Origin: a virus
Lineage: Duplodnaviria; Heunggongvirae; Uroviricota; Caudoviricetes
IMG/VR virus record: IMGVR_UViG_2721755497_000004
Reading direction: 5' to 3' (one strand)
Length of the DNA: 47,379 bases
Shown: one piece after another, positions 2,360 to 36,483 of the stretch
Position numbering within the stretch: the first letter of the stretch is position 1
Layout: each line of letters opens with the position of its first letter
Notes under the pieces: model-generated
Seen by the model: the letters and a program-made list of their open reading frames with translations, nothing else
Database searches by the model: none
What the model was told of the DNA's origin: nothing
Position numbers and translations under genes: made by a program

Positions 2360-2688
2360 TAAAAATCGTGGTTTACAGGATTAAAAAGGTGCTATCCGGA
2401 ACCGGAATTCACACAGTGAACTGTGGGTGATCCAGATAATGAGCACTACCGTGATACAAATCACGGTGGTTTTTAACGGTTTTTGCGACACAGAACTTGC
2501 TCCTTATTACGGAGAGGCGCTAACCTGCCACTTGCTTAAGGTAGACGGTTCAGGGCCTCGGGTTAACATTGAAGTTGACTCGGGGCCTTTTCACATCAGG
2601 CCTTCAGGTGTTCCCTCCGGCCATCAGCCAAAGGCACCCGCGCATACTGTACGGTTTTATATCCTTCCGGCAATTCCGGTCATCATGT

Positions 2689-5600
2689 TCACGAAATACT
2701 GATACCCGCCGTGGATTTTTTCATGACCACAACCAGTAAATCACTGATGTATGTTGTCGGCGTCCAGTGGTTCACCCCGTTCGACCACACATTAAACGTC
2801 AGGGTCACATGACCCCGTCCTGCCGGCATATCAATGACGGACGAAAACACCCGGGTGACATCCGTTGCCGGCTCATGAAAAATTACCCTTCCGTTCATCT
2901 GCACCTGTAACTGACACGTGGAATACCATGTTGAAGTGTGATCTTTGCTGGACTGGTGCTCATGTCTCGCCCCCCGGAACAGTACCGGTGGAATGATGAT
3001 CTGCCTGTCGAAGCCCTGGTCATCATAAACGGTGACCGTTATAGTGCCACTGGCATAACTGTTATTCCGTGGGAAAGCTTTCCCCACTGTTTTGACCAGG
3101 TCACCTTCAATCTGGTTTGCAGACAGTTTTCCCAGAATCCGGCAGTTCTGGTTAATGGTCACATTATTGAGCGTGCCAGAGTTCGCATTAATATTTCCGC
3201 TGATATCCGCATTACGGGCCGTCAGCCTGCCTTCCGGCGTCAGGGAGAACACAGGGGGATTGCCGGACGAGGTGATGCTCACCGCAAACAACCGCTTCAG
3301 GAATACGTCGTTCATGAACAACTGATTCCCCTGCGCCACAAACAGCGGCGTGGTGTTGCCGTTCTCCGGGTTAATCATCGCGATACGGTCAGCCTGCAGC
3401 AGAATATTGCTCAGGGTCTGGCCATCAACATCCTCAATCCCCGCACCAATACCAGCAACATACGGAATACCGTTTTTCGTTTTCTGCACCTTCAGCATGT
3501 ACAGTGCGCTCAGGCTGTCATCCGTCTCCTTCTGCACACGCTGTATCTGCTGTATGGTGACACTCTGGTCTTCCAGGATTTTATTGACCGTCTGTGTGAT
3601 TTCATTGCGGGTTTCTGTGATGGTGGTCTTCATCTCCGCCATCTCATCATCAAGCTGACTGTTATCAATCAGCTCCCACATCCCCTGTGCCAGATGTGTC
3701 TTCCCGATTTCTCCTTTGAAAAAGTCCAGATAACCTTCCGCATCATTGCTCGCCCGTCCGGTTGCTTCAACAAAAACGGATTTACCCACCAGGTTGACGC
3801 TGCGCACATAAAACCAGAAATCTGTCCCTGGCTTAATGTGCGAGCCGGAGACGCTCCACTGGCTGCCGGTCCCCAGATAACGGGCGGACGTTTCCACCTG
3901 TGCAGTGTTCGTGATGCGTTTTTCTGAGAACCAGAATTCAAACTGTACCGTCGGATCATACAACGCAAGACGCGGCACTGCTGTTATCTGGAAATAGCCG
4001 GGGGTCAGTTCAATGGTGGCAGGTGCTGCCGGTGCGTTAATCCGGAACGTGGTGATGGCGGCTTCACCCTGCTGCCCATAGCTGTTTATCGCCCTGACCA
4101 TCAGGGTGTACTCCCCCTGTGGCAAACCGCTGAAACGGTGCACCGTATCGGCAGTGATGGCGCTGGTCACCAGACGGCTGTTTTCACCGGTTCCGCTGGT
4201 CAGGCGCAGACTGAAGCGCACGCCCTTCACCACCCGCGGCGTGTCCCATTTCGCCACCGCCAGATACTGACCGTCAGACGCGCTTACCTCCACCGTGAGA
4301 TGCTGTACTGCCGGAGGTGTGACACTGTTCAGCGAACCGGACAACGGCTCAAAGGTGGCACCATTATCCACGATGGCCTCCTTCTCCGGCACATGCTGCA
4401 CCGCCGTGATGGCGAAGGTACCGTCCGCATTTTCGCGGATCGCCACACACCGGAACAGACGGCGGCGCAGTCCCGGCAATGCCAGCCCCCAGATACTGTG
4501 TTCCACCACCCCGTCAGGCAGTGTACTGATCTGTATCCTGTCAGGTGATGGCTGCCCGGTAACATCCACACTCACCGGCTTACCGCTGCCGTTTATCAGA
4601 TTCACCGTGGATGTGCCCTTTTCCGGGAGAGTGACTTCACGGTCAAGCGTCAGGGTCCGGCTGGCGTTGTCGACGGACAGGATCCGCCCGCCGATCACGG
4701 TACCGGCATACGCATTATCACTGATTTCAATGATATCGCCCGGCGTGTGACGCAGTCCCTCCGCCCCCACACTGAAATCCACTGTCTGTGTTTCCAGCAG
4801 TTCGGTCTTTATCACCCACAGGCCTGCCCGGTGAGCCTGACCACGGCTGGTACAGCCGAACGCATCCATCTTCAGAAGATTGCGTCCGTAGCGCAGTATG
4901 GCATCCGGATCCTCCACCAGTTCAGTCGATGTCTGCCAGCCATTCTGCGGATCGGTGTAATTCACCTCAACTGCCGTGTGTCTGTCCTTGAGGGCACTGA
5001 AGCTGTAATGAAAACTTACCCCATCCTCCCCCGTCACCACATTACCGGCGGTATAAGTCCAGACAACATCCGATGGTCTGTCCTGAACAAACGTCAGCGT
5101 CTGTCCGTTCCATACCGGCATACAGCGCATTGCAGAGCAGAAATCCCCCAGCACGTCCCACGCCTTACGCTGTTGTGACAGGTACGCATTAAAGGTCATA
5201 CGGGGTTCTGTACCACCAAAGCCATCCGGAACCGGCTGGTCACAGTACTGTCCGAGGGCATAGAGCGCCCACTTGTCCACATCCGCGGCCCCGAGGCGCT
5301 TTCCCATACCATAACGTGGATGCGTCAGCATATCCCACAGACACCAGGCCGGGTTGTTGCTGTATGCCGGTTTCAGAGTCCCGTCCCAGATACCGCTGTA
5401 TGTACGTTTTTCCGGGTCATAGTTTGACGGCACCTGGATGATGCGCCCGCGGATATGGTAGTTCACCGCCATCTGCTGCCCACCGAACTGCTCCGCATCC
5501 ACCTGCAGCCCCACTATGGCTGTGTTCGGGTAGCTCTGTTTCACATCGATGATTTCGGTGTATGACGACCAGAGCGTTCTGTTCTGCAGCTGGTCCGTGG

Positions 5601-7691: not shown

Positions 7692-8390
7692 TCACTGTGA
7701 AAGTTTATTAATGGAAAGGAAAAAACCGCCGTTTGCCACATTCCCGCGCATTTCACAACCGCGCAGGCACTTGCTGCATTTGTCTTTCCTGATATCCGTG
7801 GTGGGTTTGTCGAACTCGTCAGCCACTGCCGGACCGTTATACCCACATTCCTCTCCACGGTAATCCCACGGACAGGTATTGGCCAGCATGATACGACCGG
7901 GAAACAGCGCCCCGTCCGTCTCTGCCGGTGTCGCCAGGATAAAGGTCGCCTTTTCGCAGGTCAGCGCTGACAACTGCTCCACCACCCAGCGATCTGTCAG
8001 CTCCTGCTCAGGGTCAGCCTCCGGGTTTCCCGCAACAAAATTCACGGCATCGAGAAAACGGGCGTACACCCGGCGGCGAACCACCGTGCCCCCGACCAGA
8101 CTCTGCAAATCCTCCGCCATGCCGGTGACCAGTCCGAACAGATTCGAGACAATCAGCGACGGTCGCGCACTGCTGCCCTTGCCGTTCATCTCAAAGCCGC
8201 TGCCCTCTATCGGGTATGCCTGATACTGACGCCCCTGCCAGGTGACAGGCTCGCCCTTTTCATTGATTTCACCGCAGAAAAAATAGCGTTCGCCTCCCTG
8301 CGCCTTCAGGTCGATTTCCCACAGCACCACGCGGGCGGACTGCGCTGATTTTACTGCCTCGTTCAGACTCTCCTCATGAATATCCTGCAT
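7692..8390 (-). CDS. L: minor tail protein L
   Basis: Translation from the MQDIHEES Met matches lambda gpL along its length; ORF-track start lies further upstream. Confidence 0.9.
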   Translation of the reverse strand: MQDIHEESLNEAVKSAQSARVVLWEIDLKAQGGERYFFCGEINEKGEPVTWQGRQYQAYPIEGSGFEMNGKGSSARPSLIVSNLFGLVTGMAEDLQSLVGGTVVRRRVYARFLDAVNFVAGNPEADPEQELTDRWVVEQLSALTCEKATFILATPAETDGALFPGRIMLANTCPWDYRGEECGYNGPAVADEFDKPTTDIRKDKCSKCLRGCEMRGNVANGGFFLSINKLSQ

Positions 8391-8595: not shown

Positions 8596-9759
8596 TCAGA
8601 ACTGATAAGTCATCCCAACAGCAACGATATTATCTGTCGCAATACCGGCTTTCTGGGTAAATTCGCTTTCATCAATCAGGTTAATTTTATAATCAACATA
8701 AGTGGACATATTTTTGTTAAAGTAATAAGTCGCACCGACATCAATATATTTAACCAGATCCTGGTCGCCATGGTTCACACCACCAACCATAACATCCTGT
8801 CCGCGGGACTGCAGATAAGCCAGAGATGGACGCAGGCCAAAATCGAACTGATACTGAGCAACCATTTCAAGGTTTTGTGCTTTATCCGCAACCCCGGTAT
8901 CACCAAAAGTGGTCATATTCTGGGTTTCGGAATAAATTGCAGCCAGATACAGATTGTTTGCATCATATTTAAGGCCAGTCCCCCACATCTCAGCATACTT
9001 ACCTTTTGCAACGCTGCCGGAATCAACGGACACTTCTTTTTCCGTCACATCCCCCGTTAAAGGATCTTTGACTTCAATAGTTTTGCTACCATTCAGGCCA
9101 TTAACCTGCTTACCTGTACGATCTGACTTAGTATACGCTGCCACAAAACCAAAACCATCAAACTCATAGCTGGCAGAGAAACCATATCCATCACCATTAG
9201 ACTTCTGGAGGTCATCTCGCTCATTTTTTCCCTGATACTGGGCTGCAAAGTTAAGACCATCCACCAGTCCGAAGAAATCTGTATTGCGGTAAGTCAGCAC
9301 TCCGGAAGTACGAGCAGTCATGAAGTTATCAGTCTGCGTCCAGCCATCGCCACCAAATTCTGGCAGAACGTCTGTATACGAACCGACATCATAAGCGATA
9401 CCATAATTACGCCCGTAATCAATGCTACCTAAATCAGCGAATTTCAAACCGGCAAATGCCAGACGGGTTTTATTGCCTGCCGTCCCTTCAGACTCGGCCT
9501 TATTACCTGAAAACTGATATTCCCAGTGACCAAAACCTGTCAGTTGATCATTGATCTGAGTCTCACCTTTAAAACCAAGACGTGCATAGGTCTTATCGCC
9601 ATCATCACCTTTATCGTCTGAGAAGTAATGGAGAGCAGTTACACGACCATAAAGATCCAGCTTATTACCATCTTTATTATAAACTTCTGCTGCCTGAGCC
9701 CCCGCAGCAAACATCACTGCCACTGCAACAGCAGAAAGTGCCACTGTCATTTTTTTCAT
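8596..9759 (-). CDS. OmpC/NmpC/Lc-family outer membrane porin (phage moron)
   Basis: 387-aa ORF with cleavable signal peptide (…[10 protein letters not shown]), enterobacterial general-porin motifs and C-terminal ...GMTYQF; flanked by AT-rich DNA; inserted between tail genes M and L. Confidence 0.9.
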
Positions 9760-23843: not shown

Positions 23844-24038
23844 ATGTCAACTAAGAATAGAACCCGCAGAACAACAACCCGCAACATCCGCTTTCCTAAC
23901 CAAATGATTGAACAAATCAACATCGCTCTTGATCAAAAAGGGTCCGGGAATTTCTCAGCCTGGGTCATTGAAGCCTGCCGTCGGAGACTAACGTCAGAAA
24001 AGAGAGCATATACATCAATCCAAAGTGATGATGAATGA
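23844..24038 (+). CDS. YlcI-like small basic protein (ribbon-helix-helix-like)
   Basis: 64-aa ORF, Arg/Thr-rich N-terminus then RNIRFPNQMIEQINIAL; located between cos and the lysis genes on the opposite strand. Confidence 0.5.
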   Translation: MSTKNRTRRTTTRNIRFPNQMIEQINIALDQKGSGNFSAWVIEACRRRLTSEKRAYTSIQSDDE

Positions 24039-24403
24039 ACATCCCGGTTTCTTCCACCATCGCACCGGAAAAGCGACTATGAGGGTAACCCTGCGTCTGT
24101 CAGCACAGTAAAACCCGGTATGCATCGCTTTTGATTATCTCCGCACACTCGTGCAGAGGAGTATCCCGTAATGGCTGCGGTCTCTGTTAATGCGGGAACA
24201 CGGCGACAATACAGCGCCAGTTATGGGTATGAAAATCCTCACCAGCGCAAAGCTATATCAACCTGTAGTGATGCAAAATTACCCGTAGCAAAAGGTATCT
24301 CCGCACATATGCAAGAACACAGCCTTAAAAACTCAGATGAAATAATGATTTGTTAAGATTTATATTATATGTTCGACATGGTACAACACTTAAGGGATGA
24401 AAT

Positions 24404-24946
24404 ATGAACAGATACTCTAAACTTCAAATTCAATTACATTGGCTGACTCTCGTATTAATAGCTATAGCCTGTGCTGCAATGGAACTTCGAGGTTTGTTTC
24501 CTAAAGGGTCTTCCTCCTATTTGCTTATGAGAGAAACACATTACAATGCTGGTATATTTATTCTTCTACTGATGATAATAAGAGTAATTATCAATAATAA
24601 ATATATAACACCAGCTATTACGCCGCCCCCACCTGCATGGCAAATGATATCAGCCAAATTCATGCAAACCCTGTTATACATATCTTTTTTGGTGTTACCA
24701 GTATCAGGACTTGCAATCATGGTTTTTGGAGGTAAAGCATGGAGCCTTCTGGGGATTGATATTCCCACTTTCGCTAACACCGACGGAGAAGTAAAATCCG
24801 TAGCCAAAACTATTCATGAATCACTTGCAAATATTGGTTATTTATTAATCACACTCCATGCTGGCGCTGCATTAATTCATCATTATATTCAGAAGGACAA
24901 TACACTTGTCAGAATGCTCCCTGAGCACCAGCATGATAAAAAGTGA
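24404..24946 (+). CDS. cytochrome b561 family protein (CybB-like, moron)
   Basis: 180-aa ORF with conserved b561 motifs (…YSKLQIQLHWL…, …HESLANIGYLLITLHAGAALIHHYIQKDNTLVRMLP), four predicted TM helices, AT-rich, RBS AAGGGA. Confidence 0.8.
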   Translation: MNRYSKLQIQLHWLTLVLIAIACAAMELRGLFPKGSSSYLLMRETHYNAGIFILLLMIIRVIINNKYITPAITPPPPAWQMISAKFMQTLLYISFLVLPVSGLAIMVFGGKAWSLLGIDIPTFANTDGEVKSVAKTIHESLANIGYLLITLHAGAALIHHYIQKDNTLVRMLPEHQHDKK

Positions 24947-25020: not shown

Positions 25021-25527
25021 TTAATACGTCTCTGTCAGATAACTTGAATCTCTGACTGAATTATAAATGCGTTCACATGTCAATCCAGCGCGGTAATTTT
25101 CGTCAGCGCGTTTAGCATAATATCCAGCTTCTTCTGCAAGGCTTCCGAGCATGTCGGCGAGCATTGCGACGTTGCTTTCGATTGTTTTGCTTCTGACGGT
25201 AGCGGCAATATTTGCGGTATGCTCTGCCGCTTCCAGTCTGACGGTAAGCTTTGTTGCTTTTTCCCGCAACTGACTAACAGTGGCAGATAAACCAGCAGCA
25301 GTAGCATTGGCTTTGACAGCTTTCTCTTGTGCATCTTTGACAGCCTCATCACGGGCAACAATACGCCCCTGTTCAATCATCCTGACAGCAATCTGCGTAT
25401 TAACAATCTGCGACGACTCTTCACTGTCCCGCTCAGCCCATTTCGTTTGCCATTCTCTTTCACACCAGACATTTCCAGCAATAAATGAGCCAATTGACAG
25501 CAATACAATGGCCACAAGCTTAATCAA
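25021..25527 (-). CDS. Rz: Rz-like i-spanin
   Basis: 168-aa ORF after the endolysin: N-terminal TM segment then long coiled-coil; apparent TTG start overlapping the endolysin stop. Confidence 0.55.
   Translation of the reverse strand: MIKLVAIVLLSIGSFIAGNVWCEREWQTKWAERDSEESSQIVNTQIAVRMIEQGRIVARDEAVKDAQEKAVKANATAAGLSATVSQLREKATKLTVRLEAAEHTANIAATVRSKTIESNVAMLADMLGSLAEEAGYYAKRADENYRAGLTCERIYNSVRDSSYLTETY
25080..25334 (-). CDS. Rz1: Rz1-like o-spanin lipoprotein embedded in Rz (+1 frame)
   Basis: Embedded ORF with lipoprotein signal MHKRKLSKPMLLLLVYLPLLVS-C and Pro-containing mature part; start codon uncertain. Confidence 0.45.
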   Translation of the reverse strand: MHKRKLSKPMLLLLVYLPLLVSCGKKQQSLPSDWKRQSIPQILPLPSEAKQSKATSQCSPTCSEALQKKLDIMLNALTKITALD

Positions 25528-26057
25528 TTATCTATCCCCCAGCACGTCAGCATGCTTTCCTGGTCACGCCGTGATACCTGACCAGAGCAGTTGTTTGAGC
25601 GAATACGGCAGTCTTTGCCACCATCCTTAATCCACCAGCGAATCGCCTCGCAGGCACCTTTACGATCACCGGCATTAAGCCGCTTATAAAACGTCGACGG
25701 GAAACACTTACCTGGGCCAATGTTGTACGGACAGAACGACGCGATACCTGCTTTCTGCGGTTCAGTCAGCGGTACCTGGATATTTTCCTCCACCCACGCC
25801 AGCGCCTTATTGCGCTCGATGGCGTTCACCTGCTCGCATTTTGTCTTCGTCAGTTTCATGCCAGGAACGACAGGCTTACCGTCCACCATTGTGGCACCAC
25901 GGCAGATGGTCCAGATACCCGTACCATCACGGTATGCTGTTATGTGGTTGCCTTCCTTTTCATCCAGAAACTGGTCGAGAATTTCAGGCGCAGAAGCCCC
26001 TGCGGCAATCAGCGCCAGAACGGCAGCCGACAGGCCGTATCTGATTTTTGTGTTCAT
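25524..26057 (-). CDS. R: SAR endolysin (T4-lysozyme-like muramidase, phage 21 R type)
   Basis: 177-aa ORF; N-terminal Gly/Ala-rich signal-anchor-release segment (LSAAVLALIAAGASA); catalytic E-x8-D-x5-T spacing in EGNHITAYRDGTGIWT. Confidence 0.9.
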   Translation of the reverse strand: MNTKIRYGLSAAVLALIAAGASAPEILDQFLDEKEGNHITAYRDGTGIWTICRGATMVDGKPVVPGMKLTKTKCEQVNAIERNKALAWVEENIQVPLTEPQKAGIASFCPYNIGPGKCFPSTFYKRLNAGDRKGACEAIRWWIKDGGKDCRIRSNNCSGQVSRRDQESMLTCWGIDN

Positions 26058-26174
26058 GGGGATTTATCGTTTTTTAATCTCTTGATATGTTAAGTATATA
26101 ATCCAACACTCATGGCAGGTCTCATAAACATATCCCTTGAGACACAACAGATAACAACAAATGAGGCCTTATAA

Positions 26175-26489
26175 ATGAACAGTAAAGAAAGTTTGCGCAG
26201 AAGATTTTTACAACTAATGACAGAAAACGTTAAATCAGAGTTACTTCTTCAGATGGCGGACAATAACGAAGTAACGAGCAGCATTCTTGCAGACCCTTAC
26301 GGTAAACTCTCACATAAAACGCTTGATATTATTACCACAACATTAACACCACTGATGCTTCAACGGCTGAAACATAATATCAACGCATGGGTTAATGAAG
26401 AATTAAGTCCTCCCTGCTTATGGGATTCTCGTTACGCATGTCAGCAAAAAATGCGAATTTTCAACTTACTATCACCAAAGCTCAGGTAG
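26175..26489 (+). CDS. hypothetical protein (opposite-strand moron between holin and endolysin)
   Basis: 104-aa AT-rich ORF with RBS TGAGG; occupies a 687-bp insertion separating S and R. Confidence 0.45.
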   Translation: MNSKESLRRRFLQLMTENVKSELLLQMADNNEVTSSILADPYGKLSHKTLDIITTTLTPLMLQRLKHNINAWVNEELSPPCLWDSRYACQQKMRIFNLLSPKLR

Positions 26490-26744
26490 CCATAAAATCC
26501 TGCCCTTCATGGCATACAGGATATCAATGGAATCACAATGACCGCCTCTTGCACAGCTGTGTCCCTGACACCCCGACAACTCAAATTTTCAGTATCTTCT
26601 GCTATCTAAAGAGAAAGCATACAAAGTCAAGGACCTTTCATCACATCCTGTTATTGATTGCCTGTTACCTTTGCATACCTCAGGGAACGTTTTTTCAGTT
26701 AGAAATATTCATTTTACAACCAGTTCGTATTTTTTATTCATCGA

Positions 26745-26960
26745 CTACTCTCCCCGCGCCGCCTTACGACGGTCCTCTTTAATCTTGAAGTACAGGTTCG
26801 TCAGGTACGTTAACAGACCAAACAGCAGACTCCCCAGCACGCCTATTGCCGCCCACTGAGACGGGGATACCCTGTCCAGCAACTGCAGAAACCAGTATCC
26901 CGTCCCCACCGCAGACGTGGTGTATGACACACCTGTTGTGATTTTTTCCATCTGGTACAT
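26745..26960 (-). CDS. S: class II pinholin (phage 21 S type) with dual-start motif
   Basis: MYQMEK...[50 protein letters not shown]; Met1/Met4 dual start; RBS GGGAGG. Confidence 0.8.
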
Positions 26961-27037
26961 ATCCCCGCCTCCCGTTAACCGGAAGCGCACGATAATAAAA
27001 GACCACCGCGATATGCTGGTGGCCTGTGCGTCATGTA

Positions 27038-27343
27038 TCACAGCATGGTTGCTGGCTCCGGCTGCAGAACATCATTTGGTTGTTCCTCACCACCGGTTTG
27101 TGCCTCAGGTCGTTCGCTGCTGTTTTCCACCGGAGAATCTGCTGTATTCTCACCATCCCCTGCCTGTGGCGCAGATGCCCCCTCAGCAGGTCCGATAAGC
27201 TCATCCAGAATCGCTTCCACATCCGCATCAATCTGAGCCTCAAACGTTTTACGGATAGACGCTTTCAGCGTCCCGCGGACTTCTTCAGTGCGCAGCGCTG
27301 ACTTCACTGCATCAGCAGTGACCAGTTTTTTCATTTCTGTCAT
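27038..27343 (-). CDS. hypothetical acidic protein
   Basis: ~101-aa ORF from the [13 protein letters not shown]et, highly acidic C-terminus; between nanS-p-like gene and holin. Confidence 0.4.
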
Positions 27344-27707: not shown

Positions 27708-29642
27708 TTACGCGTTATTCACTTCCACCACAATGCTGTCAATCAGCACCGGGTATGTTGCACCATTAGTGATATCGGTCACACGCAACTTGTCTGCCGT
27801 AAAAATTCCGACAGTGGACTGCGACAGCATGAACGGCGTCCCGTCCTGACCATCAATGACCGGCGTCACCTCAATACTGTTGTTACCGGCGAAACGGAAG
27901 CCCAACGTATGCCACTCGTTGTCAAATGCACCGAATGACCCCAGTTTCATGTTTTGCGCCGTATCGCCCTTGTGGTACATCACGTTAAGGTCTGTCGCAT
28001 CGCTCTGAACGTAAAAAGATGCCAGCAGGTTATGACCAGCATTACCTTCCAGGGTAACCCCTTGTGGCAGGGCAGAAACCGGCCAGTACAGCGCCAGTGC
28101 GTACTGATTAGCCGTAAGCGCGCCATCAAGTTTAAAACGACAATTGACAAGGCCGCCTTTGCCCAGCAGGTCGGCACCATTACCGGCATCATGTTCCAGG
28201 TACCAGGAGGATTTTCCCGTCGCTTTGGTAAGCTTCATCGCCTTACCTCCACTGGCTCCGGCATCATCCACAACAGCGGCACTACCTCCGCCAGCCCCCC
28301 AGCCCTGTGGAGTCAGTTGTCCTTCCGAATCGCTGGCCCTGTATGCAAACAGTGTTGTCATCCCGGTAGTTTCACCCGGTGATGTTGATGGAGTGTCAGG
28401 TGATGGCTTCTCATCCGGTGGTGTCACGGCCTGCCCGCCCAGCAGTTCAGCCGTGCGCCCTGCATGGAGCAGAATAGAGGAGGCCAGACGGTCAGAAATG
28501 ATGCCCCTGCGTGCCCATGAACTGAAATGGCTGTCACGCTGTGTCGAGACAAAACTGCCCTGGGTACGGGATGCCGCACCGTAATACCCGACAGCCACAA
28601 TATCCGGATCTTCCGTCGGAGCATTCGTTGGCGTGTTCTGTCCATTCTCATCCGTCAGGAACGGTACAAAGAAAATATTCTGAGTTTCCTTGCCTTTGTA
28701 GCCACCGTATACCGCCTCATATTTATCGGTGCCAGCGTTTTTCCAGTAATACGTGGTATCACCACAAATCCACGGTACCGTGCCAGCATTTCCACTCACG
28801 CACTGCGCAGCAAGCGGAGACAGGTCGGCTCTGAACTGCTGAACCATGGCAGTGAATAAACCATTATGCTGCTGACTTCCCGATGCAAGGTCTGCCTCTC
28901 CCTGCATCCAGACCACAGCCAGAAGTTTGTTTTTCGGGTTCTTCGCCAGCGCGACTTTGGTGCGGCTTACCAGGTCCTGATACAGAGGTTTACCGACTCC
29001 CCAGCGTGAAGAATCAGCGGAAGCACCGCTGGCCTCACTGAATGAACCGTCCGGCCCGGTGGTGAATGCTGACCCGCCACGGCAACAGGGCACCAGAAGT
29101 ATCCCGGCATTCTGCGGGATATAAGGCAGCAGTTTTTTGGCAATATGCAGCCCCTGACTCACACAACCATACTGCCCCTTGTTCAGGTCAGCTTTTGGGT
29201 GGTTTATCCCGCTCATGTCCTGCACATCATGCAGGCAGTGGTCTGCCGGAATGATGTCATTGTATTTACACGGCGTACCACCTGGCGTGACCGTGCTGCG
29301 GCGTGCCAGTTGCTTAATCCGTGGGTCCGGGCGGTCAAATGAATCCGGTAACGGAAGCCCTTCACCATAGGCCATGCCATTTGACTGCCCCGCCAGAACA
29401 ACAACAAAGTAATATTCTGGCTCACTGACTGTGCTCATTACCGTACCGCTGTCACCCGACGGCTTCACCACAACAGGCGTGGTGACATCACCCTCCGCTG
29501 CAATCGCCTGCATCAGGGTATAAGGCGTAATAGCAACCGGACTGCCAAACGGCTGCCAGCCTTCCTTCAGTTTTTGTGACAGTCGCTCCGCAAGCTCTGA
29601 CGGTGAAGCCGCCCTGACCACACCATAATGCTTAAATGTCAT
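27708..29642 (-). CDS. NanS-p-like sialate O-acetylesterase (SGNH/DUF303 hydrolase with C-terminal domain)
   Basis: ~645 aa from the MTFKHYGVV Met (RBS GGGAGGAG); GQSN motif; the position upstream of the lysis genes matches where I recall prophage nanS-p genes sitting. Confidence 0.65.
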   Translation of the reverse strand: MTFKHYGVVRAASPSELAERLSQKLKEGWQPFGSPVAITPYTLMQAIAAEGDVTTPVVVKPSGDSGTVMSTVSEPEYYFVVVLAGQSNGMAYGEGLPLPDSFDRPDPRIKQLARRSTVTPGGTPCKYNDIIPADHCLHDVQDMSGINHPKADLNKGQYGCVSQGLHIAKKLLPYIPQNAGILLVPCCRGGSAFTTGPDGSFSEASGASADSSRWGVGKPLYQDLVSRTKVALAKNPKNKLLAVVWMQGEADLASGSQQHNGLFTAMVQQFRADLSPLAAQCVSGNAGTVPWICGDTTYYWKNAGTDKYEAVYGGYKGKETQNIFFVPFLTDENGQNTPTNAPTEDPDIVAVGYYGAASRTQGSFVSTQRDSHFSSWARRGIISDRLASSILLHAGRTAELLGGQAVTPPDEKPSPDTPSTSPGETTGMTTLFAYRASDSEGQLTPQGWGAGGGSAAVVDDAGASGGKAMKLTKATGKSSWYLEHDAGNGADLLGKGGLVNCRFKLDGALTANQYALALYWPVSALPQGVTLEGNAGHNLLASFYVQSDATDLNVMYHKGDTAQNMKLGSFGAFDNEWHTLGFRFAGNNSIEVTPVIDGQDGTPFMLSQSTVGIFTADKLRVTDITNGATYPVLIDSIVVEVNNA

Positions 29643-29812
29643 TGCTCCTCCCGGACGGGATAATATGTTAACTAAGATGAGAGAGCAGGTGACAGCCCCG
29701 GCCGCATGAAAGTTCTGAGAGGGAAGTGCTGCCTGCTGCTCCATTGCACAGATTAATTACTGTCTGGTAGTATTCAGTGGCTGATTAGAATACTTCACAT
29801 TTTGTTATTTTG

Positions 29813-29847
29813 TGCAGCCCGTTACCATTCGTAGCGGGCTTTTTTTG
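29813..29847 (+). terminator. plus-strand hairpin plus T7 run
   Basis: AGCCCG...CGGGCT stem followed by TTTTTTT. Confidence 0.45.
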
Positions 29848-29850
29848 TCC

Positions 29851-29876
29851 ATAAAAAAGCCCCTCCGGAGAGGGGC
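29851..29876 (-). terminator. minus-strand intrinsic terminator (GCCCCTC-CGGA-GAGGGGC plus U6)
   Basis: Perfect 7-bp GC stem preceded on the plus strand by AAAAAA; lies downstream (minus sense) of repeat element A. Confidence 0.55.
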
Positions 29877-29907
29877 ATACTAGCTATATATCCATTTATC
29901 ATTGGCT

Positions 29908-30037
29908 GCGTGGTGCCGGGTGCCTCCCGGTGAGCTCAGCCTGGTGTCACTGAGCCCGCACATTCTCGATCCAAGTTATCGTCGGAGATAATACCTGATA
30001 CACCAGACGCCCCTCCGCACAGGGGGATTCACCACGC
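29908..30037 (-). repeat. structured repeat element A (closing helix GCGTGGTG/CACCACGC)
   Basis: 5' arm plus CCGGG-TGCCT-CCCGG hairpin ... variable core ... CCCCT-CCGCAC-AGGGG hairpin plus GATT plus 3' arm; strand assigned from the flanking terminators. Confidence 0.7.
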
Positions 30038-30265
30038 GCAGAGAAGGATACTGAACACTATTTTCTCCAGGCAATATGCAATAACATGAAGTGTGAGATG
30101 ACTTACAATTATAAAAAACAGCCTACAGAATACTCCTAAATAAAGCCATATCAAAATGAGTAACACAAAAAGGAACCAGGCAAAAATTTACGAGCAGGTA
30201 TTATCCAGCAACAGTTCAGACGCCATAACTTATTGCCGATAGCTACCATCAATAATTTCTTTCAT

Positions 30266-30289
30266 AAAAAAGCCCCTCTGAAGAGGGGC
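30266..30289 (-). terminator. minus-strand intrinsic terminator (GCCCCTC-TGAA-GAGGGGC plus U6)
   Basis: Near-identical copy of the element A terminator, downstream (minus sense) of element B. Confidence 0.55.
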
Positions 30290-30316
30290 TGACATACGCA
30301 TTTGCTTTCATCATCA

Positions 30317-30439
30317 ATATGGCGCCGGGTGCCTCCCGGTGCTCCATAACTGATTAATATGGAACGCGGTTTCATTCAGTTGCATTCATGAATAACACTC
30401 TAATCAGTCCGCCCCGCCGCTTAGGGGGATTCGCCATAT
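30317..30439 (-). repeat. structured repeat element B (closing helix ATATGGCG/CGCCATAT, compensatory change)
   Basis: Same architecture as A; terminal helix sequence differs from A but remains perfectly complementary. Confidence 0.7.
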
Positions 30440-30574
30440 AAATTGAAAGTACTGAACACATCTGTCACAAACAATATGCAATTGTATGAATTGTGAGATT
30501 ATTATCAATAACACAAAATTACAGCTCTAGTACATAAACAGCAGATTAAACAAGAACAACAAAAGTATTGAATT

Positions 30575-30700
30575 GCACGGTGCCGGGTGCCTCCCGGTGA
30601 ATTCTGCAATGACCAGACAGAATCCGCAACTTGCTACTAACGCTAATGCGACCAAGCCTAACAGTCATTATGCCCCTCCGCACAGGGGGATTCACCATGC
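30575..30700 (-). repeat. structured repeat element C (closing helix GCACGGTG/CACCATGC, one mismatch)
   Basis: Same conserved hairpins GGTGCCGGGTGCCTCCCGGTGA and CCCCTCCGCACAGGGGGATTCACCA; different variable core. Confidence 0.7.
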
Positions 30701-30829
30701 GCTAAAAAAATACAAAACGTCACGTCACTCTGACAATACGAAGCACCATAAAATGTGAGTTATTTATCAATTCTTAATTCTGGTTACAGGAATATTCCGA
30801 ATCAAATCTTTAAAAAAAGAAATTCAAAT

Positions 30830-30932
30830 GCATGGTGCCGGGTGCCTCCCGGTGAACAGACCGTCCGTGATACCAGTCGGCAACACAGGAAATTAATGGT
30901 ATCACCCCACCGCACAGGGGGATTCACCATGC
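30830..30932 (-). repeat. structured repeat element D (closing helix GCATGGTG/CACCATGC)
   Basis: Same conserved hairpins; shorter variable core containing its own 9-bp hairpin GTGATACCA/TGGTATCAC. Confidence 0.7.
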
Positions 30933-31121
30933 AGGCGTTTTCTTAGCAAACTAACTGCGCGCCCGGCAACTCCCAACCACATAAAACGTGGAGTTTGTAG
31001 CATTTATGCACATAACTCACAGGGGTTATCTTAAAAAAAGCTGACCATGCTTCCCCGGCAACGCAATAACTTTATTCCCTGAAGTGGCATCCCCCGTATT
31101 GTCGGCAGGCTCAAAAAGGAG

Positions 31122-35949: not shown

Positions 35950-36021
35950 CGGTTGTCTCTGCTGGCGCAGCAGGTGCCAGTTGTTCAGGCTGGCGTGCGA
36001 ATTGTAAACCAGAATGCTAGG

Positions 36022-36048
36022 AAAAAACAAAACCCGCCGAAGCGGGTT
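36022..36048 (-). terminator. intrinsic terminator downstream of hok (AACCCGC-TTCG-GCGGGTT plus U-run)
   Basis: Perfect stem with tetraloop followed on the minus strand by TTTTGTTTTTT; nearby second hairpin GGCGAGGGA-TTTC-TCCCTCGCC (36088-36109). Confidence 0.55.
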
Positions 36049-36116
36049 AAGTGCGGGTGCGTTGAGGATGCCTGCCACATCAGAGGTGGCGAGGGATTTC
36101 TCCCTCGCCGGGTCTC

Positions 36117-36272
36117 TTACTCCTCAGGTTCGTAAGCTGTGAAGACAGCGACCTCCGTCTGGCCGGTTCGGATTCGTACCTCGCAGAGGTCTTTCCTCGT
36201 TACCAGTGCCGTCACTATGACGGTTAAACAGATGACGATCAGGGCGATTAACATCGCCTTTTGCTGCTTCAT
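36117..36272 (-). CDS. hokD: Hok-family type I toxin
   Basis: 51-aa MKQQKAMLIALIVICLTVIVTALVTRKDLCEVRIRTGQTEVAVFTAYEPEE, canonical Hok; nested in the longer mok-like frame starting at 36329. Confidence 0.85.
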   Translation of the reverse strand: MKQQKAMLIALIVICLTVIVTALVTRKDLCEVRIRTGQTEVAVFTAYEPEE

Positions 36273-36329
36273 AGCCTGCTTCTCCTTGCCTTTCGGCACG
36301 TAAGAGGCTAACCTAGATTTGCCGTTCAT
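36117..36329 (-). CDS. mok: Mok-like overlapping reading frame
   Basis: 70-aa frame (MNGKSRLASYVPKGKEKQA…) extending upstream of and in frame with hok. Confidence 0.45.
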   Translation of the reverse strand: MNGKSRLASYVPKGKEKQAMKQQKAMLIALIVICLTVIVTALVTRKDLCEVRIRTGQTEVAVFTAYEPEE

Positions 36330-36483
36330 AGATTGAGCCTCAGATTAATGTTAAGCGTCTTGCAGGACGCGTAATGTTAACTGGGGCTTTTCTCTATCTG
36401 CCTTTGGTGTTCATGCCTGAGACAGATAGCCTCAAGCACCCGCAGCCATTCTACTTAACTCCCGTTACCTCGCCAATATAAAA

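What the first reader, a model, noticed from the sequence alone, without database searches (positions are those of the whole stretch)
26058..26744. Lysis cassette interrupted by an opposite-strand gene between pinholin and SAR endolysin
In the phage 21-type cassettes I recall, S and R are adjacent. Here a 687-bp AT-rich insert carrying a 104-aa plus-strand ORF (RBS GAGG) separates them. The insert may carry its own promoter and would be transcribed antisense to the late operon, which could affect lysis timing or simply represent a moron.
Basis: partly seen in the sequence, partly recalled or inferred. Interest (0 to 1): 0.5.

Follow-up and report, generated by a model that had tools for sequence, protein, structure and literature searches.

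The report
Orphan accessory gene inside prophage lysis cassette
Between the holin and endolysin genes of this E. coli prophage lie a small, well-conserved opposite-strand gene of unknown function and the decayed stub of a second gene; this layout recurs in about a tenth of such lysis cassettes, so it is ordinary but uncharacterised.

Summary
A P21-type holin S (26745-26960, minus) and a lysozyme R with a SAR-like N-terminus (25524-26057, minus) are separated by 687 AT-rich bases (GC 0.38 against 0.53-0.54). The gap holds a 104-codon plus-strand ORF (26175-26489).

The ORF is a real gene. dN/dS is 0.12-0.39 across homologs and the length stays at 104-106 codons. It matches PHROG 1853 (unknown function) and has no Pfam, NCBIfam, PADLOC or structural relative.

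The other 255 bases (26490-26744) are the relic of a YdfR/DUF1327-type late gene. That gene is intact at the same place in Stx2 phage 86 (orf5, with orf6 as the ORF homolog).

The same 687-base insert is in 628 of 5,426 complete E. coli genomes, about 9.5% of P21-type S copies. Most sequenced phages of this type have S and R adjacent.

The ORF also survives intact in prophage remnants where R, S and the neighbour gene have decayed. It also occurs upstream of a phage porin gene. It is always antisense to the late operon, and most subtypes keep a TATAAT box upstream.

Best reading: a self-transcribed accessory gene ("moron") acting as a protein in the lysogen, not a lysis-timing device. Its biochemical role is unknown.

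The parts
26745..26960 (-). S, a P21-type class II holin (predicted pinholin), 71 aa, with a Met1/Met4 dual start
   Evidence: PF04971 E 7e-33. PGAP names it 'class II holin family protein'. Sequence read.
26490..26744 (-). Pseudogene relic of a YdfR/DUF1327-phrog_1085 late gene (the 'orf5' of Stx2 phage 86). Three pieces can be recognised. The first ten codons MNKKYELVVK plus a stop lie at 26709-26741. A middle fragment lies at 26537-26665. The C-terminal 'MKGRI' lies at 26496-26519.
   Evidence: 28 bases are 96% identical to the start of phage 86 orf5, and MNKKYELVVK* aligns with MKKKYELVVKGI. The best six-frame hit of the whole window to an HMM built from four orf5-family proteins falls here, but it is weak (E 0.002, 6 bits). 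tblastn against the 12E129 protein gives 31% identity over 73 aa with in-frame stops. One E. coli hit to bases 217-253 of this segment is annotated 'YdfR family protein'.
26175..26489 (+). ORF104: a 104-aa (12.1 kDa, pI 9.3) soluble all-helical protein of the PHROG 1853 family, function unknown
   Evidence: phrog_1853 E 4e-45. dN/dS 0.12-0.39. Only 17 clusters and 19 representatives exist in the two large protein libraries. AlphaFold2 gives pLDDT 79.5 with five helices. No transmembrane segment (maximum Kyte-Doolittle 19-residue window 0.52).
26163..26166 (+). Shine-Dalgarno GAGG for the 26175 start codon
   Evidence: Read from the sequence. The 14 codons upstream of the start chosen by PGAP (26217) are conserved in homologs, and the phage-86-type homologs have Ile where the window has the internal Met.
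26097..26102 (+). Candidate -10 box TATAAT of the ORF104 promoter; the -35 is poor (TTAATC at 26074-26079)
   Evidence: The box is conserved in the window-type, L003-type, L006, L013 and porin-context L014 homologs. It is TACAAT in L009. It is absent from the phage-86-type and L072-type loci. The consensus scanner did not call a promoter because the -35 matches only 3 of 6 positions.
26058..26174 (.). 117-base region shared by the 5' end of R (leader ...CGATAAATCCCC-ATG, no Shine-Dalgarno) and the ORF104 promoter and 5'UTR
   Evidence: Alignments. The R-proximal leader is shared with the YdfR-only and phage 86 arrangements.
25524..26057 (-). R, a lysozyme with a SAR-like N-terminus (predicted SAR endolysin)
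   Evidence: PF00959 E 7e-25. N-terminal sequence read.
25021..25527 (-). DUF2514 spanin-like gene overlapping the end of R; it closes the lysis cassette
   Evidence: PF10721 E 2e-44. An embedded ORF with a lipobox is visible.

Best explanation
The S-R gap is a recurrent variable slot in P21-type lysis cassettes. In this prophage it holds two things.

1. An intact accessory gene, or 'moron' (ORF104, PHROG 1853). It is read from its own sigma-70-type promoter (TATAAT at 26097-26102), away from R and against the late operon. It makes a 12-kDa basic, soluble, helical protein that serves the lysogen or the prophage as a protein.

2. The 255-base wreck of a YdfR-family late gene that once followed S and used the ribosome-binding site inside the end of S.

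Lysis itself is not disabled. Q-antiterminated late transcription from upstream of S reads through the 687 bases. R is then translated from its own leader, as it is in the functional Stx2 phage 86, which has the homologous but longer arrangement.

Shown here: the gene is real, the relic can be identified, and the distribution and contexts are as described. Inferred: promoter use, expression in the lysogen, read-through of the gap, and that the benefit is to the lysogen (for example exclusion or defence against other phages, or host regulation). The biochemical activity is not known.
For: - Coding selection. dN/dS is 0.12-0.39 in all pairs for which dS could be estimated, and length stays at 104-106 codons. 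The ORF is intact in 70 of 75 IMG/VR loci.
- The gene behaves as a discrete module. Homology to the porin-context loci L014-16 begins and ends exactly at the ORF (window 26174-26488). There it sits upstream of a phage porin gene, between Q and a different holin.
- It outlives its neighbours. In L006-8 and L013, R is a 100-430-base stub, S is absent and orf5 is in fragments, yet the ORF is full length. In O157:H7 PV15-279, R is cut by an IS3-family transposase gene and the terminase and portal genes are frameshifted, yet the ORF is intact. The orf5 gene has decayed independently in several lineages.
- Moron hallmarks. GC is 0.38 against 0.53-0.54 in the flanks. The insert is present in some cassettes and absent from otherwise homologous ones: 41 of 45 phage records in which both flanks were joined are adjacent. 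The orientation is opposite to the late genes in every locus. A -10 box is conserved upstream.
- Frequency. The full-length insert is in 628 of 5,426 complete E. coli genomes (750 places), against 7,890 P21-type S copies.
- Compatibility with lysis. The same R leader, with a 1.26-kb S-R gap, is in Stx2-converting phage 86.
Against: - No expression data could be found. The promoter has a perfect -10 but a poor -35 and was not called by the scanner.
- No intrinsic terminator follows the ORF on the plus strand.
- The phage-86-type and L072-type homologs lack the TATAAT box.
- No sequence or fold relative gives any hint of activity.
- The constant head-to-head position next to the first downstream lysis gene could mean something more than a neutral landing site.
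- The window-type insert is absent from 50,697 phage records. No isolated phage with exactly this arrangement is therefore known to lyse normally.
Confidence: 0.6

Rival explanations
1. Cis-acting safety catch or timer. What matters is transcription from the ORF104 promoter rather than the protein. It runs head-on into any leaky late transcription before that reaches R, and it produces RNA antisense to the relic and to S. This would damp basal expression of the dangerous SAR endolysin and holin in lysogens, or delay R relative to S after induction.
For: The gene is always antisense to the late operon. Its 5' end always faces the 5' end of the next lysis gene: R in more than 70 loci and a different holin in L014-16. 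No plus-strand terminator lies between the ORF and S, so read-through antisense to S is plausible.
Against: Purifying selection acts on the amino-acid sequence. Homology in the porin context is confined to the ORF itself. The gene stays intact in remnants with no S and a dead R, where there is nothing left to regulate. About 90% of P21-type cassettes do without it. From general knowledge of lambda Q, Q-modified polymerase is highly processive and late transcription is strong, so a promoter with a poor -35 is unlikely to slow it.
Confidence: 0.15
2. ORF104 is half of a two-gene convergent module with the orf5 (phrog_1085/DUF1327) gene, for example a toxin-antidote or defence pair. The window would then carry a broken module in which only one partner survives.
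For: In 25 of 75 IMG/VR loci, in phage 86 and in the 12E129 phages, the two genes converge with their stop codons about 9-11 bases apart. The window carries the relic of the partner at the matching position.
Against: ORF104 stands alone and intact in about 50 window-type loci, in the L072 type and in the porin context. YdfR-type genes stand alone without ORF104 in 733R4-type phages and, judging by the gap size, in the unannotated Stx1a phage records. From memory, K-12 Qin is the same. No PADLOC model matches either protein. The orf5 gene has decayed repeatedly while ORF104 is kept.
Confidence: 0.1
3. ORF104 encodes a lysis accessory protein, for example a cytoplasmic regulator of the pinholin or of SAR endolysin release, and belongs functionally to the cassette.
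For: In most loci it sits inside the lysis cassette, tightly linked to R.
Against: It is on the wrong strand to be part of the late transcript. It has no membrane segment or signal peptide. It occurs with unrelated holin and lysin types (PF16931, PF05449, GH108) and outside any cassette. It persists where the lysis genes are dead.
Confidence: 0.08
4. The ORF is a chance open frame in AT-rich spacer DNA.
For: No Pfam or NCBIfam family matches. PGAP calls a shorter, 90-aa version.
Against: dN/dS is 0.12-0.39 with saturated dS, and homologs as low as 47% identity keep the full length. The PHROG 1853 match has E 4e-45. Between the window and the O157 allele the ORF is the most conserved part of the insert: 10 of 315 positions differ, against 12 of 117 upstream and 19 of 255 downstream.
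Confidence: 0.01

Closest known systems
orf5/orf6 of Stx2-converting phage 86 (AB255436 / NC_008464), and the same pair in the Stx2a phages Stx2_12E129
   Same: The order and strands are the same: S (minus), a YdfR-family gene (minus), a 104-aa opposite-strand gene (plus), then R (minus) with the same R leader. orf6 matches PHROG 1853 (E 8e-50) and aligns with the window protein at 47% (full-length alignment) to 52% (local tblastn over residues 12-100).
   Different: In phage 86 orf5 is intact (268 aa); in the window it is a 255-base relic. The upstream region of orf6 has a hairpin followed by a U-run instead of TATAAT. Neither gene has a described function.
Lambdoid morons on the opposite strand of the late region (bor of lambda; lc/nmpC porin of PA-2/DLP12). 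These examples are from general knowledge.
   Same: A small AT-rich unit set against the late operon close to the lysis genes, present in some otherwise homologous phages and absent from others. One ORF104 homolog lies directly upstream of such a porin gene.
   Different: bor and lc encode envelope proteins with known lysogen phenotypes and mapped promoters. ORF104 is a soluble cytoplasmic protein with no known phenotype, an unmapped promoter and no recognisable terminator.
YdfR (DUF1327) between the holin and lysozyme genes (733R4-type phages; K-12 Qin from memory)
   Same: It occupies the same S-R slot and starts 3-4 bases after the S stop codon. The window relic keeps its first ten codons.
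   Different: YdfR is co-directional with the late operon and is unrelated to ORF104. In the window it is a pseudogene.
Canonical phage 21 / 933W-type S-R cassette
   Same: The holin family is the same (PF04971) and the lysozyme has the same SAR-like N-terminus. The S end ...CGGGGAGAGTA(G/A) is conserved.
   Different: In those phages R starts 4 bases after S (Min27). Here 687 bases intervene and R uses a different leader and N-terminus (MNTKIRYG rather than MSRKLRYG).

Membership tests
PHROG 1853 (phage protein family, unknown function) | Significant match to the family HMM over the whole protein | tested here: met
   E 4.1e-45, residues 1-102 against profile positions 57-158 of 159.
Moron (accessory transcription unit of lambdoid phages) | Present in some genomes and absent between the same flanking genes in close relatives | tested here: met
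   41 of 45 phage records in which both flanks were joined have S and R adjacent. The insert is at 750 places against 7,890 S copies in E. coli genomes.
Moron (accessory transcription unit of lambdoid phages) | Base composition distinct from the neighbouring phage genes | tested here: met
   GC 0.38 against 0.53-0.54.
Moron (accessory transcription unit of lambdoid phages) | Own promoter upstream | tested here: inconclusive
   A perfect TATAAT at 26097-26102 is conserved in most homolog groups. The -35 matches only 3 of 6 positions, the scanner made no call, and two homolog groups lack the box.
Moron (accessory transcription unit of lambdoid phages) | Own terminator downstream | tested here: not met
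   No intrinsic terminator lies on the plus strand between 26490 and S. In phage-86-type loci the convergent gene ends 9 bases away, which leaves no room for one.
Moron (accessory transcription unit of lambdoid phages) | Expressed from the repressed prophage | not testable with these tools
   No expression data were found.
P21-type pinholin / SAR-endolysin lysis cassette | Class II holin of the S21 family with a dual-start motif | tested here: met
   PF04971 E 7e-33. Met1 and Met4 read in the sequence.
P21-type pinholin / SAR-endolysin lysis cassette | Lysozyme with a weakly hydrophobic Gly/Ala-rich N-terminal signal-anchor-release domain and an E-8-D-5-T triad | tested here: met
   PF00959 E 7e-25. 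YGLSAAVLALIAAGASAP and EGNHITAYRDGTGIWT read. Actual release from the membrane was not tested.
YdfR / DUF1327-phrog_1085 gene (for the 255-base relic) | Recognisable homology in the right place, order and strand | tested here: met
   The N-terminal ten codons are 96% identical at DNA level. The middle segment is the best HMM hit in the window. The C-terminal MKGRI lies next to the ORF104 stop, as in phage 86. The pieces are interrupted by stop codons, so the gene is not functional.
Known anti-phage defence systems (PADLOC-DB 2.0) | Match to any defence-protein model | tested here: not met
   No families matched ORF104, phage 86 orf6 or four orf5-type proteins at E up to 0.1.
Known regulatory RNAs (Rfam 15) | Covariance-model match within 25900-27100 | tested here: not met
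   No match at E up to 1 and none at gathering score in this region.

The most novel reading that the evidence does not exclude
ORF104 is a lysogen-expressed factor with a new activity. It could be a small basic protein that excludes or defends against superinfecting phages. Alternatively, protein plus head-on transcription could form a 'safety catch' that keeps the self-releasing SAR endolysin silent in the prophage. Either would explain why the gene is kept next to lysis genes, always antisense, and why it outlives them in decaying prophages of STEC and other E. coli.
Probability: 0.2. Interest if true: 0.55.

Novelty: new member of a known kind. Interest (0 to 1): 0.3.

Why it matters
The gene is carried by roughly one in nine complete E. 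coli genomes, often in several copies. The carriers include the major STEC serotypes O157:H7, O145:H28, O111, O26 and O121. Every source still names it 'hypothetical protein'. It survives under purifying selection in prophage wrecks, which marks it as a candidate for a host-beneficial or prophage-selfish function that is worth one cloning experiment. It also documents the S-R junction of P21-type cassettes as a variable cargo slot holding YdfR, a larger YdfR-family gene, PHROG 1853, or nothing. For annotation there are three practical points: the PGAP start is probably 14 codons too short, the adjacent 255 bases are a pseudogene, and the spanin gene hides an unannotated lipoprotein frame. None of this changes current understanding of lysis.

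Tried and rejected
- Remote homology for ORF104 gave nothing informative. Pfam, NCBIfam and PADLOC had no hits. The PDB profile search gave only noise. The exhaustive profile search of 1.84 billion representatives found only 19 family members, all about 105 aa or fragments.
- The first tblastn of three orf5-type proteins against the insert found nothing. A second attempt with the phage 86 and 12E129 proteins and small word size, followed by an HMM, found the relic. nhmmer with the DNA alignment found nothing.
- A conserved RNA structure in the ORF104 5'UTR was considered. The single-sequence fold sequesters the Shine-Dalgarno (z -2.7). RNAalifold on nine homologs supports only a weak 6-bp local hairpin (-2 kcal/mol), so I dropped it.
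- A terminator inside the gap for either strand was sought. Only weak, non-significant hairpins were found.
- Rfam found nothing in the region.
- The scan of GTDB species-representative genomes found no relative. An alignment including the more divergent members was too divergent for the locus finder.
- Literature searches (WP_000138558, ydfR + holin, DUF1327, phage 86, moron/holin/antisense) turned up nothing on this gene.

Full report
**1. What is in the sequence**

The window is a complete-looking lambdoid prophage of E. coli. Its late operon lies on the minus strand, and the gene set runs from integrase to tail fibre. The 687-base gap itself is 100% identical in the mouse strains M1, M3 and M18 and in the human strain CI5. 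The S gene is 100% identical in M1 and M3 and 99.1% in CI5.

Around the finding the minus-strand genes, in order, are:
- a SASA/DUF6645 esterase at 27708-29744;
- a DUF1378 gene and a DUF826 gene;
- a P21-type holin S at 26745-26960 (PF04971, E 7e-33);
- a lysozyme R at 25524-26057 (PF00959);
- a DUF2514 spanin-like gene at 25021-25527.

S starts MYQM, which gives the dual-start arrangement. R has the N-terminus YGLSAAVLALIAAGASAP, rich in Ala and Gly, and an E-8-D-5-T motif. 'Pinholin plus SAR endolysin' is therefore a fair prediction from sequence.

Between the stop of S and the start of R lie exactly 687 bases (26058-26744). Their GC content is 0.38, against 0.53-0.54 for the flanking genes. 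They contain the plus-strand ORF at 26175-26489, preceded by GAGG at 26163-26166.

**2. The ORF is a real gene**

Only 17 clusters among 5.8 billion proteins, and 19 representatives among 1.84 billion, are related to it. Every one that carries a name is from E. coli or Enterobacteriaceae, and every name is 'hypothetical protein'.

Homologs down to 47% identity keep 104-106 codons. Nei-Gojobori dN/dS is 0.12-0.39 in every pair for which dS could be estimated, with dS from 0.1 up to saturation.

Between the window and the common O157-type allele, the ORF differs at 10 of 315 positions. The 117 bases upstream differ at 12 positions and the 255 bases downstream at 19.

The protein matches PHROG 1853, a family of unknown function (E 4e-45). 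It has no Pfam, NCBIfam or PADLOC family.

PGAP starts the gene at 26217, giving 90 aa. However, the 14 upstream codons are conserved, and the phage-86-type homologs have Ile at the internal Met. The 104-aa reading is therefore preferred.

**3. The rest of the gap is a pseudogene**

Three bases after the S stop codon, the minus strand reads ATG AAT AAA AAA TAC GAA CTG GTT GTA AAA TGA, that is MNKKYELVVK followed by a stop. In Stx2 phage 86, the gene that follows S (orf5, 268 aa, N-terminal DUF1327 = YdfR family, PHROG 1085) starts MKKKYELVVKGI at the same spacing. The YdfR gene of phage 733R4 starts MTQNYELIVKGI.

Further into the gap, 26537-26665 is the best six-frame hit in the whole window to an HMM built from four orf5-type proteins. 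That hit is weak (E 0.002) and contains in-frame stops. A C-terminal 'MKGRI' lies at 26496-26519, just before the ORF104 stop. This mirrors phage 86, where the two genes converge 9 bases apart. One E. coli hit to the segment is annotated 'YdfR family protein'.

The 255 bases at 26490-26744 are therefore the collapsed remains of a co-directional late gene. They are not spacer DNA that arrived together with the ORF.

**4. Distribution and contexts**

The whole 687 bases occur full length in 628 of 5,426 complete E. coli genomes, at 750 places. Six genomes match at 99% or better. The rest match at about 94% and belong largely to STEC O157:H7, O145:H28, O111, O26 and O121. P21-type S genes occur at 7,890 places, so about 9.5% of such cassettes carry this insert.

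No record in the phage collection has the insert, even at blastn sensitivity. Four Stx2 phages carry a homolog at 52% local identity.

In the phage collection most cassettes have S and R adjacent. A minority carry YdfR alone, DUF1327 plus DUF1823, or larger inserts.

Across 75 IMG/VR loci and the other loci fetched, five contexts recur:
- (a) The window type: R, 117 bases, the ORF, about 258 bases, then S. About 48 loci.
- (b) R, the ORF, an intact orf5-type gene of 191-385 aa, then S.
- (c) R, the ORF, about 100 bases, then S, with no relic.
- (d) Between Q and an unrelated holin, directly upstream of a phage porin gene. Here DNA homology is limited to exactly the ORF.
- (e) Prophage remnants in which R is a frameshifted stub, S is gone and orf5 is in fragments, yet the ORF is full length.

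In every locus that has late genes, the ORF is antisense to them. It is intact in 70 of 75 loci. The orf5 gene has been frameshifted or deleted independently several times.

**5. How it most likely works**

The pattern is that of a moron: a discrete AT-rich unit, present or absent between conserved neighbours, set against the late operon, kept by selection on its protein, and outliving the phage genes around it.

A perfect TATAAT at 26097-26102 is conserved in most subtypes, including the porin context. A transcript starting near 26109 is therefore the likely source of the mRNA. The -35 is poor and the scanner did not call a promoter, so this step is inferred.

Lysis should still work. This follows from general knowledge of Q antitermination, and from the fact that phage 86 carries the homologous, longer arrangement with the same Shine-Dalgarno-less R leader.

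What the protein does is unknown. My best guess is a lysogen-level function such as exclusion or defence, or regulation, because the gene is retained where the lysis genes are dead.

**6. Rivals**

- A purely cis-acting antisense 'safety catch' or lysis timer fits the constant head-to-head placement next to a lysis gene. It does not explain selection on the protein, or persistence without S and R.
- An obligatory two-gene module with orf5 is contradicted by the many solitary occurrences of each gene.
- A lysis accessory protein is unlikely given the strand, the solubility, and the occurrence with unrelated holins and outside cassettes.
- A chance ORF is excluded.

**7. Comparison and novelty**

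The closest described thing is the unannotated-function pair orf5/orf6 of Stx2 phage 86. In kind, the gene resembles opposite-strand morons of lambdoid late regions such as bor and the lc/nmpC porin (general knowledge).

The family is already catalogued (PHROG 1853) and annotated as hypothetical in hundreds of genomes. The arrangement is therefore not new, and only the function is open.

I rate it a new, uncharacterised member of a known kind, of modest interest. The added findings are that the gap is composite (gene plus YdfR-family relic) and that the S-R junction is a recurrent cargo slot.

Noticed in passing
window 29847-30962 (-): Four tandem copies of the sRNA family STnc100 (RF02076, 77-133 bits) lie between the tRNA genes and the SASA/DUF6645 esterase gene, upstream of the lysis region.
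   Followed up: no
window 25080-25376 (-), inside the DUF2514 gene 25021-25527: An embedded out-of-frame ORF carries a lipoprotein signal and lipobox (MHKRKLSKPMLLLLVYLPLLVSC...) and a Pro-rich mature part. It looks like an Rz1-type outer-membrane spanin, and it is not annotated in the RefSeq record.
   Followed up: partly
window 23844-24946 (+): A second plus-strand AT-rich cluster lies between the spanin and terminase genes. It comprises a YlcI/YnfO (DUF3950) gene, a 61-aa ORF and a cytochrome b561 gene (GC 0.378, PF01292 E 6e-25), and is probably more morons.
   Followed up: partly
window 8596-9759 (-): A porin gene annotated as OmpC (387-aa ORF in the window) is embedded among the tail genes, between the minor tail protein L gene and a tail protein gene.
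   Followed up: no
window 36267-36441 (-) and about 35972-36127 (-); also about 2380-2490 (-): A hok/sok type I toxin-antitoxin locus lies in the early region (sok RF01794, 110 bits; hokD coding sequence). A second Hok/Gef family gene lies next to the tail fibre genes.
   Followed up: no
window 26217 versus 26175 (+): RefSeq/PGAP starts the ORF at 26217 (90 aa). Conservation of the 14 upstream codons, the GAGG at 26163-26166, and loss of the internal Met in distant homologs all favour 26175 (104 aa). The original GenBank annotation of CI5 (AKC12284.1) used 104 aa.
   Followed up: yes
window 26117-26169 (+): In the predicted ORF104 5'UTR, AGGUCUCAU can pair with the Shine-Dalgarno region AUGAGGCCU (MFE -13.5 kcal/mol, z -2.7). 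It can alternatively form a local GUCUCA/UGAGAC hairpin. Comparative support is weak.
   Followed up: partly
L017 3880-3925 (+) (Stx2 phage 86) and the L081-L093 type loci: The phage-86-type homologs lack the TATAAT box. Between the R start and the ORF they carry instead a GC-rich hairpin followed by a U-run on the plus strand (CCGCCAGCGG...CACUGGCGUUUUU), which looks like a terminator in an unexpected place.
   Followed up: no
window 26058-26090 (-) and L096/L017 equivalents: R has no Shine-Dalgarno sequence in this arrangement. The leader ...GATAAATCC(TGATAAATATCC)ATG is shared by the YdfR-only, phage 86 and window types, and the window lacks one copy of the ATAAAT(A)TC repeat.
   Followed up: partly
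L006-L008 (Logan metagenome contigs), 4317-5330: An intact ORF104 homolog (71% identity) with a 100-base R stub sits in a non-phage island, next to a PerC-family regulator gene and fimbrial genes.
   Followed up: partly
L028 3498-6152 and L055; L002 4339-5551: IS3-family elements have inserted repeatedly in and around this module. In L028, two similar transposase ORF pairs lie between the ORF and S. In L055, foreign sequence replaces the region immediately upstream of the ORF and removes the -10 box. In O157:H7 PV15-279, one lies in R.
   Followed up: no
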